Below are positions 49 to 2,503 of a stretch of DNA of 64,000 nucleotides, piece after piece. Source of the stretch: Tubulanus polymorphus (taxonomy: Eukaryota > Animalia > Nemertea); assembly GCF_964204645.1 (NCBI RefSeq), contig NC_134029.1, forward strand, positions 3,534,001-3,598,000, in the 5' to 3' direction. The notes under the pieces were generated by a model that saw only the letters and a list, made by a program, of their open reading frames with translations, had not been told where the DNA came from and made no database searches. Both the position numbers and the translations under genes were made by a program. Numbering within the stretch: position 1 is the stretch's first letter; every line of letters starts with the position of its first letter.

Positions 49-2503
49 CCTATCCATAATTCCATATAAATCACAATATCGTAAGAGCAGACGCATTTCT
101 TCTAGACCTTTCTTCGCAGTTTTATTGCCAGTTAGATGCTCATCAGTTTCCAACTTCTCGATAAGATCCATTCCTCCTACGATCAACAACCATTCAATCA
201 ATTTCATGAAATAACCCCTCATCACGAGAGAGACACTGTTACTCACCATTAAGTTTGACATAGCTTCCAATTTTATCAGCTACAGCTGGGTCGAGTCCCT
301 TCTCATCAACCATTTCAGCTTTCACATCTTCCCAAAATGTCTTCAAACAAAAATATATTTTTACTATGTGTATATTTCAATCGAAATGAAGTAAAACATC
401 CAGTTTGGTTGCGCTAAACTTACTTTGTCGAGTTTATCAACAGATGAACAAATAGTGCGGAATTTATCAGCTGGAACGCCACTGACAGCAAATATACCAT
501 CAAGCAACATCCTGTGGTTTATCTAAATATTTCAAACAAAGATGATCAAAGATGTGTAACAGCAAATAGCGAAATGACTTTATATCTATCTACTCATATT
601 AGTAGCGGTAGATAGATACCTTGATTTCAAAGTCTCCGAGCTCGAGACCGGAAAGAATTTCATGGATTATTTTCAAACACTCGGCATCCGGTACCATAGG
701 ATCATACTGACCAGCTATATCAATATCCTGAAAATAGAGAGAACACATATATGACTTTCAATCATTTGCAGAGAAAGAGAATTTGTTGAGACTGAAGTAA
801 AGAATTGGCTTGTATCATAAGGAATGCTTACAAATTAGGGAATCCAAAATTACCCTTGACCAAAATTTCCCAGATTAAATTACAAGATATTCTCAGAGGG
901 GGCTGTTTCTTTACAAGAGGTTTCTTGAGGCACTCATCACCAGCAAGAACAATAAATGGCACCGAATTCCCTAATGGTACTCTTGGTTTTCTCCCAGGGA
1001 AAAATAAATCCAGAATTCCCTGATCTGTAAGAAACGTGTGACTAGTATTGGGACATAAAGCAGGTTGCTGTTAAACTTACACACTGATAAAACTCTCTGA
1101 ATCGTCCTCGGTTCATTGCTGGGTTATCTCTTCGATATACTTTAGCTATGTGATAACGTTTTATATTCGTTATTTTATTCATAGCCAAATAACGAGCAAA
1201 CGGCACCTGATGCAATTACGTCAAGAAATCAATAAATAAACAGAGGTTTGTTTTTTCTAACCGGCGATTGTAAAAGAAGAAAGGATACAGTCAGATCATA
1301 TCTGAGCGAAAGGTGTTCACCACCTTGATCGGCTAAATCATAGATCAACTTCGAGTCTTCTCCATATTTACCAGTAAGAGTATCCTAAAAACATCAAAAC
1401 ATTTCATTGCTGCTATTGTCAGTATCTTCCAGGGGCCAATTTCATAGACCGATATTAACTTAGACCCGGGGTTTGTTTCAATGGAGTTAACCCCAGGGTT
1501 AAAGTAAATATTGGTAATGCATTATAAAAAGCCAAGAAAGATTATTCTACTAACTTTCAACTCAAAGACAGGAGTGTCTATAGTTTCTGCACCGTGACGT
1601 TTGAAGCAGTCAGTAATTGTATTAAAAACGCGTTCTCTGATAGCCATCTGCCCGGGATGATAATCTCTAGTACCCTAAAATACAGCACATTCGGAAACTT
1701 TTACACTTATATCAGTTTGCCATACCGGTAAAATCTCAGAATATTTCAGATTCCTTTACTTTTGGGCATTTAAGAACGAACTTCTTTGATGAAGATTCAT
1801 CATTAGGCTTGGCTTGTGCTTTTAATTCCAATAATTTCTTCACTTCTTCTGTAACCTAACAACGAGAAAAAATAGCATCCTTTATTACATTTTTGCCGAT
1901 GATAGAATGTTCCTCTTACAGAGACTGGTCAAAAGGATGGATTACTGCATCTACAATATCATTTCTTACCTGTTCAACATCTGAACTTAAACCTTTATCA
2001 ATCGTCATCAAATATTGACATTTTCTCATGCTAAGCATGGATTTCATCCATTTCATTCGCGTAAAGCTCCTCAGAGCCATTTTCAGTTTTATGCAAATAT
2101 TTAACTATTTCTTCGACAAAGTAAGAAGAATGATACTACTATCATTGGGCCTAAAAACAAAAAGAAAAGATCGACTGGAATTGTTCAATAACAGGTGTAG
2201 CAGTAATCCATCCTTTTTTGAAAGCATAGATAAATTTCACTCCACAATTATATTTCCACAATCTTGTCATACAAATATGTATGACTTATAAACATAGTTT
2301 TGAATTTAATTGAGTTGCATCACTATCAGAAATTGAAATAGGGCCTATACTCTAAAGAATTTAATTGATCCAAAAATAAATTCGTGTTGACGAATAATTA
2401 CTTTATCTTTATCCGCACCAGACGCTTTCATAGAACGAACTATCTCTCCCTGTTGCCTAATTTTCTCTTGTAAATCAGCTGTCGAGCCGGTGGAAGAGGC
2501 CAT
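49..2503 (-). CDS. HARS: Histidyl-tRNA synthetase, cytosolic isoform (5' part, 9 exons; continues beyond left edge)
   Basis: Manual splice reconstruction with GT-AG introns. Exons: 2503-2402, 1855-1760, 1674-1555, 1384-1289, 1206-1081, 727-620, 522-424, 340-247, 176-49. Translation gives a WHEP-like N-terminus ([48 protein letters not shown]), then [73 protein letters not shown] and [11 protein letters not shown], which are eukaryotic HisRS motifs. Confidence 0.97.
1207..1288 (-). other. U12-type (minor spliceosome) GT-AG intron in HARS
   Basis: The 5' splice site is GTATCCTTT, the U12 consensus. A branch-like TTTCTTGAC lies 13 nt before the end of the intron and there is no polypyrimidine tract. 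The intron sits between the codons for YDLT and VPFARY. Confidence 0.88.
1970..2080 (-). CDS. HARS: Alternative HARS N-terminal coding segment encoding a putative mitochondrial targeting peptide (within cassette exon 2150-1970)
   Basis: ATG at 2080 (context AAAATGG) opens 37 codons, [37 protein letters not shown]. The segment ends at a CAG|GTAAGA donor in phase 0, matching the next exon (VTEEVKK...). The first ~27 residues are R/K/M/S/L-rich with no acidic residue. A strong acceptor (TCTTTTCTTTTTGTTTTTAG) ends at 2151. Confidence 0.75.

What the first reader, a model, noticed from the sequence alone, without database searches (positions are those of the whole stretch)
1970..2503. HARS cassette exon acts as a stop-and-restart switch from cytosolic to mitochondrial HisRS
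Seen in sequence: intron 1 holds a 181-nt exon (2150-1970) with a strong acceptor and a CAG|GTAAGA donor. Spliced to exon 1 (34 codons, phase 0) it reads GCC CAA TGA TAG TAG, three tandem stops that turn the cytosolic start into a 36-codon uORF. At 55 nt after the last stop, in another frame, an AAAATGG opens a 37-aa peptide with a basic, acid-free N-terminus that joins exon 2 in frame and replaces the first WHEP helix. Established: mammals use two genes (HARS1/HARS2), while single dual-targeted HisRS genes exist in yeast (HTS1) and, as I recall, zebrafish. Inference: one gene makes both enzymes, and the mitochondrial form depends on re-initiation or leaky scanning past the uORF, or on an alternative non-coding leader. 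An exon that looks like a poison exon would then be a targeting switch with translational dosage control.
Basis: partly seen in the sequence, partly recalled or inferred. Interest (0 to 1): 0.78.

Follow-up and report, generated by a model that had tools for sequence, protein, structure and literature searches.

The report
Ribbon-worm HisRS mitochondrial-address exon
A ribbon-worm gene for histidyl-tRNA synthetase has an extra exon in its first intron that likely swaps the enzyme's start for a predicted mitochondrial address tag, an ordinary one-gene-two-compartments design already shown in zebrafish.

Summary
The gene is HARS of the nemertean Tubulanus polymorphus. The 181-nt intron-1 exon, three tandem stops, 55-nt gap and 37-codon frame are all there. 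Its acceptor ranks 1 of 6,593 AGs in the window. RefSeq already predicts the resulting 520-aa protein as isoform X1, labelled 'cytoplasmic-like'. The one spliced contig shows only exon skipping, so inclusion after exon 1, import and re-initiation are inferred, not seen. The design is published: zebrafish hars exon 2 stops the first frame, restarts inside the exon and gives a mitochondrial enzyme (PMC5608375); a review describes the same for human KARS (PMC7600831). This scan noted it before in a chimaera (e1-9549880). Presequence-like N-termini join at the same mid-WHEP junction in 14 of 20 animal HisRS clusters examined (molluscs, brachiopod, sea stars, fishes), which suggests an ancestral bilaterian exon. 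New member of a known kind; low interest.

The parts
2402..2503 (-). HARS exon 1, coding part: cytosolic start and first half of the WHEP domain; would become most of a 36-codon uORF when the cassette is included
   Evidence: Matches RefSeq X2 residues 1-34; spliced to exon 2 in the X3 contig; Pfam WHEP 11-50
2151..2170 (-). Polypyrimidine tract and AG acceptor of the cassette exon
   Evidence: Score 16.1, rank 1 of 6,593 AGs in the window; use not observed
1970..2150 (-). 181-nt alternative exon: 70-nt leader part plus 111 nt coding for the alternative N-terminus
   Evidence: Sequence; its coding part is the N-terminus of RefSeq X1, XP_074649906.1; no contig of X3 covers it
2136..2144 (-). 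Three tandem stops (TGA TAG TAG) in the exon-1 frame
   Evidence: chance about 0.011 in shuffles
2101..2145 (-). Second small uORF (14 codons); its ATG overlaps the first stop and has a weak context (C at -3, A at +4)
   Evidence: use untested
1970..2080 (-). 37-codon presequence-like frame from ATG 2080 (A at -3, G at +4); 6 R/K and no D/E in the first 27 residues; five more in-frame ATGs
   Evidence: no Pfam family; import predicted from composition only
1964..1969 (-). GTAAGA donor of the cassette exon, phase 0
   Evidence: Score 7.0, rank 88 of 7,035 GTs; junction to exon 2 implied by the RefSeq X1 protein
1760..1855 (-). HARS exon 2, first shared exon (second half of WHEP and linker)
47..1674 (-). 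HARS exons 3-9 with introns (catalytic domain); the gene runs on beyond the window start
   Evidence: Contig joints of X3, intron ends, tblastn with X2 protein
2524..2799 (-). Possible, unproven leader intron (donor at 2799, weak acceptor at 2524) that would allow a non-coding first exon; basis of the main rival
   Evidence: Scores 5.1 and 3.2, inside the leave-one-out range of real sites; no contig support

Best explanation
The intron-1 exon likely acts as a cassette: when skipped, exon 1 joins exon 2 and gives the WHEP-bearing, presumably cytosolic HisRS; when included, it would end the exon-1 frame at three stops, and ribosomes would likely restart at ATG 2080 to make a 520-aa HisRS with a predicted mitochondrial presequence. 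Shown: the skipped form (contig), the exon's anatomy, the stops, the in-frame join, and loss of WHEP in the alternative protein. Inferred: inclusion after exon 1 (very strong acceptor; exon-1 donor is the best upstream donor; zebrafish precedent), import (composition and homology), and re-initiation rather than leaky scanning (the exon-1 ATG has a strong context, A at -3 and G at +4). Restart should be inefficient, which would give a low mitochondrial yield as a by-product; regulation of that yield is not indicated.
For: Acceptor rank 1 of 6,593 and donor rank 2 of 52 locally. RefSeq lists exactly this protein as isoform X1 beside the exon-1 isoform X2. Pfam WHEP is found in X2 (E 1.2e-12) and not in X1 at E <= 0.01. 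Presequence-like N-termini ending in Q at the identical junction occur in 7 of 10 invertebrate clusters and 7 of 10 clusters (7 of its 8 fish clusters). Zebrafish hars: a 309-nt exon 2 stops the exon-1 frame, a second start in exon 2 gives a 520-aa protein that co-localised with a mitochondrial marker, and both splice forms were amplified by RT-PCR (PMC5608375). A single HARS gene is described there as ancestral in animals. In p53, re-initiation was seen after 126 codons and across 6-243 nt gaps and let transcripts escape NMD (PMC6614817, abstract). No second HisRS-like segment lies in the window.
Against: No contig carries either cassette junction: X3 shows only exon 1 to exon 2 and no cover of the exon at 90% or 80% likeness; contigs drop rare variants, so this is weak. 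The RefSeq protein shows the 3' junction only, not what lies upstream. A 36-codon uORF exceeds the usual re-initiation-permissive length (under 30 codons in mammals; PMC5972666 passage), and a second uORF lies in the path. The peptide's best 11-residue hydrophobic moment (0.48) is below those of the eight other invertebrate presequence-like isoforms scored (0.61-0.98), though inside the range of five fish isoforms (0.34-0.68). 6 of 20 clusters showed no presequence-like isoform (oysters, Babylonia, amphioxus, horseshoe crab, unionid mussels, one eel/tarpon cluster). A diverged second HisRS gene could not be excluded: no genome is held.
Confidence: 0.7

Rival explanations
1. The exon does give the mitochondrial isoform but is reached without exon 1: a non-coding first exon (donor at 2799) splices straight to acceptor 2150, or transcription starts inside intron 1. 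No re-initiation past the exon-1 frame is then needed, and the three stops are incidental.
For: A TCA|GTGAGT donor at 2799 (score 5.1) and a weak acceptor at 2524 (3.2) fall within the range of real sites. 2950-2800 is CpG-rich (14 CpG in 151 nt) and 2799-2600 is AT-rich like an intron, 28% GC. At least one in-frame stop is expected in 88% of shuffled leaders. It avoids the long-uORF problem.
Against: No contig supports a leader exon. The exon-1 donor scores higher (7.1) and lies nearer. A start inside intron 1 leaves the top-ranked acceptor unexplained. In zebrafish the included form retains exon 1 (PMC5608375).
Confidence: 0.18
2. The exon is a poison or cryptic exon: inclusion ends translation and sends the mRNA to NMD, and RefSeq X1 is only the longest frame left in that transcript. 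Mitochondria get HisRS another way.
For: First stop lies 174 nt before the exon's end, far upstream of a junction; long uORF; exon not seen in contigs; X1 is a computed prediction.
Against: A basic, acid-free frame with a strong-context ATG and a phase-0 donor sits at the same junction as presequence-like isoforms in four other phyla (molluscs, brachiopod, echinoderms, chordates); only 3 of 615 open frames in the window combine such composition with such a donor. The exon-1 N-terminus is acidic and not presequence-like.
Confidence: 0.08
3. The alternative protein is made but is not mitochondrial: a WHEP-less isoform with another role, like the acidic third N-termini annotated in some molluscs.
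For: Low hydrophobic moment; oyster, scallop and Babylonia predictions show that non-presequence N-termini also join at this junction.
Against: Its composition groups with the presequence-like set (0 D/E and 6 R/K in the first 25 residues) and not with the acidic set (4 D/E in two of them); no clear counterpart of the mollusc motif was seen in the three frames of intron 1.
Confidence: 0.04

Closest known systems
Zebrafish hars cassette exon 2 (Waldron et al. 2017, PMC5608375; parts 1-3 of 5 of the text read, plus a term search)
   Same: Same enzyme; optional exon after exon 1; exon-1 start quickly stopped inside the exon; second start inside it; 520-aa product without the WHEP domain; skipped form has WHEP. 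Other fish X1 isoforms join at the same residue as here.
   Different: Exon 309 nt against 181 nt; both starts in one frame in zebrafish, shifted by one here (same frame in the X1-run contig); three tandem stops and a second uORF here; inclusion and localisation were tested in zebrafish and not here; the zebrafish sequence itself was not aligned.
Human KARS1 exon 2 (Tolkunova et al. 2000, seen only through review passages in PMC7600831 and PMC4394549)
   Same: Single gene; inclusion of exon 2 introduces a stop for the exon-1 start and a downstream start that adds the mitochondrial N-terminus.
   Different: Lysyl-, not histidyl-tRNA synthetase; not homologous at the exon level as far as tested (not tested).
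Yeast HTS1; Drosophila HisRS CG6335; C. elegans hars-1 (passages in PMC7600831, PMC4826098, PMC10196762, PMC9593246)
   Same: One HisRS gene serves, or is predicted to serve, both cytosol and mitochondria.
   Different: HTS1 uses two transcripts with a 20-aa extension; for fly and worm the passages read give isoforms or 'alternative splicing' without the exon anatomy.
RefSeq XP_074649906.1, Tubulanus polymorphus HisRS isoform X1
   Same: Identical protein, already predicted.
   Different: Named 'cytoplasmic-like'; the name does not recognise a mitochondrial role; its mRNA model could not be seen.

Membership tests
Animal WHEP-bearing histidyl-tRNA synthetase (HARS) | HisRS catalytic domain, anticodon-binding domain, N-terminal WHEP | tested here: met
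   Pfam PF13393, PF03129, PF00458 on X2; exons map to the window
Dual-targeted aaRS by stop-and-restart cassette exon (zebrafish hars, human KARS1 type) | Internal exon after exon 1 with sound acceptor and donor | tested here: met
   Splice-site ranks; sequence-level test only
Dual-targeted aaRS by stop-and-restart cassette exon (zebrafish hars, human KARS1 type) | Stop in the exon-1 frame followed by an internal ATG in frame with the shared body | tested here: met
   RefSeq X1
Dual-targeted aaRS by stop-and-restart cassette exon (zebrafish hars, human KARS1 type) | Skipped transcript exists and encodes the WHEP form | tested here: met
   X3 contig joint across 2401-1856
Dual-targeted aaRS by stop-and-restart cassette exon (zebrafish hars, human KARS1 type) | Included transcript contains exon 1, the cassette and exon 2 | tested here: inconclusive
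   No contig on the exon; contigs drop minor forms; no raw RNA reads were offered
Dual-targeted aaRS by stop-and-restart cassette exon (zebrafish hars, human KARS1 type) | Alternative N-terminus is a working mitochondrial presequence | tested here: inconclusive
   Composition fits, amphipathic moment modest; no TargetP/MitoFates or import assay available
Dual-targeted aaRS by stop-and-restart cassette exon (zebrafish hars, human KARS1 type) | No separate mitochondrial HisRS gene in the genome | not testable with these tools
   No genome held; only the window was searched; the 120 best of 5,525 hits held one Tubulanus entry, which cannot exclude a diverged paralogue
Poison exon (AS-NMD) | Inclusion lowers mRNA through NMD and yields no functional protein | not testable with these tools
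   Premature-stop geometry is present but an in-frame restart is also present

The most novel reading that the evidence does not exclude
The stop-and-restart presequence exon in HARS intron 1 is one ancestral bilaterian device, kept at the same mid-WHEP junction in nemerteans, brachiopods, molluscs, echinoderms and fishes since before the protostome-deuterostome split and replaced by gene duplication only in tetrapods; it would make mitochondrial histidylation depend on re-initiation after a roughly 30-36-codon WHEP-helix uORF across most animals.
Probability: 0.5. Interest if true: 0.42.

Novelty: new member of a known kind. Interest (0 to 1): 0.22.

Why it matters
As a single case it corrects an annotation (RefSeq X1 is probably the mitochondrial, not a cytoplasmic, isoform) and warns that an exon that looks like a poison exon can be essential. 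With the other animals examined it extends the zebrafish design to protostomes and points to an ancient origin, which bears on why HARS/HARS2 were duplicated separately in amphibians, birds and mammals. It also offers a natural test of re-initiation after a long uORF.

Tried and rejected
Own-genome search for a second HisRS: no genome held. Sequencing-run search: no RNA holder listed; 3 runs, all contigs. X1 and X2 gave no GT-AG joints on HARS; only X3 is spliced. A second lay of X3 and X2 at 80% likeness gave no cover of the exon. Metagenome scan with X1: 80 loci kept of 565; by the table 4 are 51-65% identical and the other 76 are 31-39%; I did not open any of them, so they gave nothing on the exon. 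Search with X1 residues 1-62: 1 hit among 13 candidates, the window's own X2; no other nemertean. The peptide has no Pfam family and shows no meaningful similarity to nine other species' alternative N-termini (only 2-13-residue matches), as is usual for presequences (established knowledge). RNA structure between the stops and the restart ATG: z = -0.21, 81 of 200 shuffles fold as well; rejected. The AG-free zone reported for the chimaera exon (e1-9549880) is not shared: 12 AGs lie in this exon and the nearest upstream AG is about 24 nt before the acceptor. My first composition null used a cut-off that the peptide itself misses (28 residues, 7 R/K) and was replaced. Exon ends guessed were off by one from exon 6 on and were corrected. 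Literature: no paper holds 'nemertean' with 'histidyl-tRNA synthetase'; a six-term search for the invertebrate distribution of this exon returned 5 papers, of which only PMC5608375 is on HARS by title. No earlier scan note near this place. Supplements were not opened.

Full report
What the locus is. The minus-strand gene at the start of the window is histidyl-tRNA synthetase. A search with the exon-1 frame returned one protein among 14 candidates, named HisRS isoform X2 of Tubulanus polymorphus, a ribbon worm. Its cluster has two members, X2 (517 aa) and X1 (520 aa). So the alternative protein is already a RefSeq prediction, although it is named 'cytoplasmic-like'. Pfam finds the WHEP domain at 11-50 of X2 and none in X1; both keep the catalytic and anticodon-binding domains. 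The junction at residue 34/35 falls inside the WHEP match, so the new peptide replaces its first half (WHEP as a helix-turn-helix is established knowledge, not tested here).

Checking the observation. Coordinates, lengths, stops and frames are as stated. To test chance I built splice-site matrices from 13 introns confirmed by contig joints, none belonging to the candidate exon. The acceptor at 2150 scored 16.1, first of 6,593 AG sites on both strands; confirmed acceptors scored -3.0 to 12.3 in leave-one-out. The donor at 1969 scored 7.0, 88th of 7,035 GT sites and second of 52 between 2950 and 1856. The matrix is small, so ranks are rough. Of 615 ATG-started frames open for 27 codons, 21 have no D/E and at least 6 R/K, and 3 of these also have a strong phase-0 donor, this one included. 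Three tandem in-frame stops arose in 1.1% of shuffles and at least one stop in 88%: a stop is nearly free, and the triple is only mildly unusual. Additions: the first acidic residue is D28; an ATG at 2145 in weak context overlaps the first stop and opens 14 codons ending 20 nt before ATG 2080; five further in-frame ATGs follow 2080.

Transcript evidence. Three runs hold the stretch, all as contigs, none on record as RNA. X3 is spliced: one contig carries eight HARS joints, among them exon 1 to exon 2, and nothing of X3 lies on the candidate exon at 90% or 80% likeness. Contigs lose minor forms, so this shows the skipped form and says little on inclusion. An unspliced X1 contig differs from the window by one missing base in the A-run before ATG 2080, and by two substitutions in the flanking intron; none in the 111 coding bases. 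In that version the exon is 180 nt and the restart lies in the exon-1 frame, still behind the three stops. The frame offset is therefore either polymorphic or an error in one sequence; either way it is not a safe part of the mechanism.

Other animals. I listed members of 20 clusters chosen from the 120 best hits for having two or more members, a choice that favours annotated isoforms. In 7 of 10 invertebrate clusters (two scallops, chiton, Gigantopelta, Lingula, four sea stars) and 7 of 10 clusters (7 of 8 fish clusters; 15 of 19 members listed for the largest) an isoform replaces the first half of WHEP with a basic, acid-poor peptide of about 28-47 residues (63 in one cichlid prediction) that ends in Q at the same junction. 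Six clusters showed none: oysters and Babylonia have an acidic alternative instead, and amphioxus, horseshoe crab, unionid mussels and an eel/tarpon cluster showed no such isoform, which may reflect clustering or annotation. These are protein predictions: they fix the exon's 3' junction but do not tell whether it is a cassette or a first exon in each species. The peptides share no clear sequence similarity with the Tubulanus region. The Tubulanus peptide has the composition of this set, with a lower hydrophobic moment than the other invertebrates scored and one within the fish range.

How it most likely works. Skipping gives the WHEP-bearing enzyme (transcript shown; cytosolic location inferred). 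Inclusion after exon 1 (inferred) ends the first frame after 36 codons. The exon-1 ATG has a strong context, so leaky scanning should be poor and re-initiation is the likelier route to ATG 2080, 61 nt after the first stop; the ATG at 2145 lies too close and in too weak a context to catch many ribosomes (inference). Against this, permissive uORFs are usually under 30 codons in mammals (PMC5972666, passages); for it, re-initiation after 126 codons with escape from NMD was reported for p53 (PMC6614817, abstract). A low yield is expected, but nothing here shows regulation. No RNA structure stands out between stops and restart. The main rival is that the exon is reached from a non-coding first exon with a donor at 2799, or from its own start, which removes the need for re-initiation; the sites are passable but unsupported by contigs. 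Poison-exon and non-mitochondrial readings are less likely.

What is known. Waldron et al. 2017 (PMC5608375; parts 1-3 of 5 read; term search) describe zebrafish hars: a 309-nt exon 2, the exon-1 start quickly stopped in exon 2, a second start in exon 2, a 520-aa protein without WHEP that co-localises with a mitochondrial marker, and a single HARS gene as the ancestral animal state with separate duplications in amphibians, birds and mammals. The text has no occurrence of 'reinitiation', 're-initiation' or 'leaky', so the restart mechanism is not tested there. A review gives the same logic for human LysRS exon 2 and zebrafish HisRS and describes yeast HTS1 (PMC7600831, passages; PMC4394549, passages). 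Fly HisRS is predicted dual-localised (PMC4826098, passages); worm hars-1 is listed as dual (PMC9593246 and PMC10196762, passages). Searches found nothing on a nemertean HisRS and no paper by title on the spread of this exon in invertebrates; the library lacks most subscription papers, and supplements were not opened.

Verdict. A real feature and most likely a functional mitochondrial-targeting exon, of a kind already published and with its protein already predicted. It works like, and by the features I could test belongs with, the zebrafish hars / human KARS1 cassette type; inclusion after exon 1, import and single-copy status remain untested. The most interesting open point is the apparent age of the exon across bilaterians.

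Noticed in passing
window 2948-7767 (+): A CCDC22 gene (Pfam CCDC22_CC) lies head to head with HARS; its likely ATG at 2948 is 445 nt from the HARS ATG, with a CpG-rich stretch at 2800-2950 between them, which suggests a shared two-way promoter.
   Followed up: partly
P0122 (Saccostrea), P0126 (Argopecten), P0142 (Babylonia): Three molluscs have a third, acidic HisRS N-terminus joined at the same mid-WHEP junction and sharing a short G-D/G-L/I-H-K-R/S-I motif; neither WHEP nor presequence-like, function unknown; no clear counterpart in Tubulanus intron 1.
   Followed up: partly
window 2008-2080 (-): Six in-frame Met codons in the first 25 residues of the presequence-like frame, four of them nine bases apart; may be a micro-duplication, and would offer fallback starts for late re-initiation. 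Not seen in the other species' peptides.
   Followed up: no
window 2080-2083: One-base length difference in the A-run before the restart ATG between the window and a contig of run X1.
   Followed up: partly
window about 850-1035, 1476-1510, 3195-3265, 6059-6315, 18176-18281: Short interspersed repeats: many partly fitting contigs pile up here in the laid runs.
   Followed up: no
window about 9211-14312: Long unspliced X3 contigs cover much of this stretch, possibly a long 3' UTR or large exons of a neighbouring gene.
   Followed up: no
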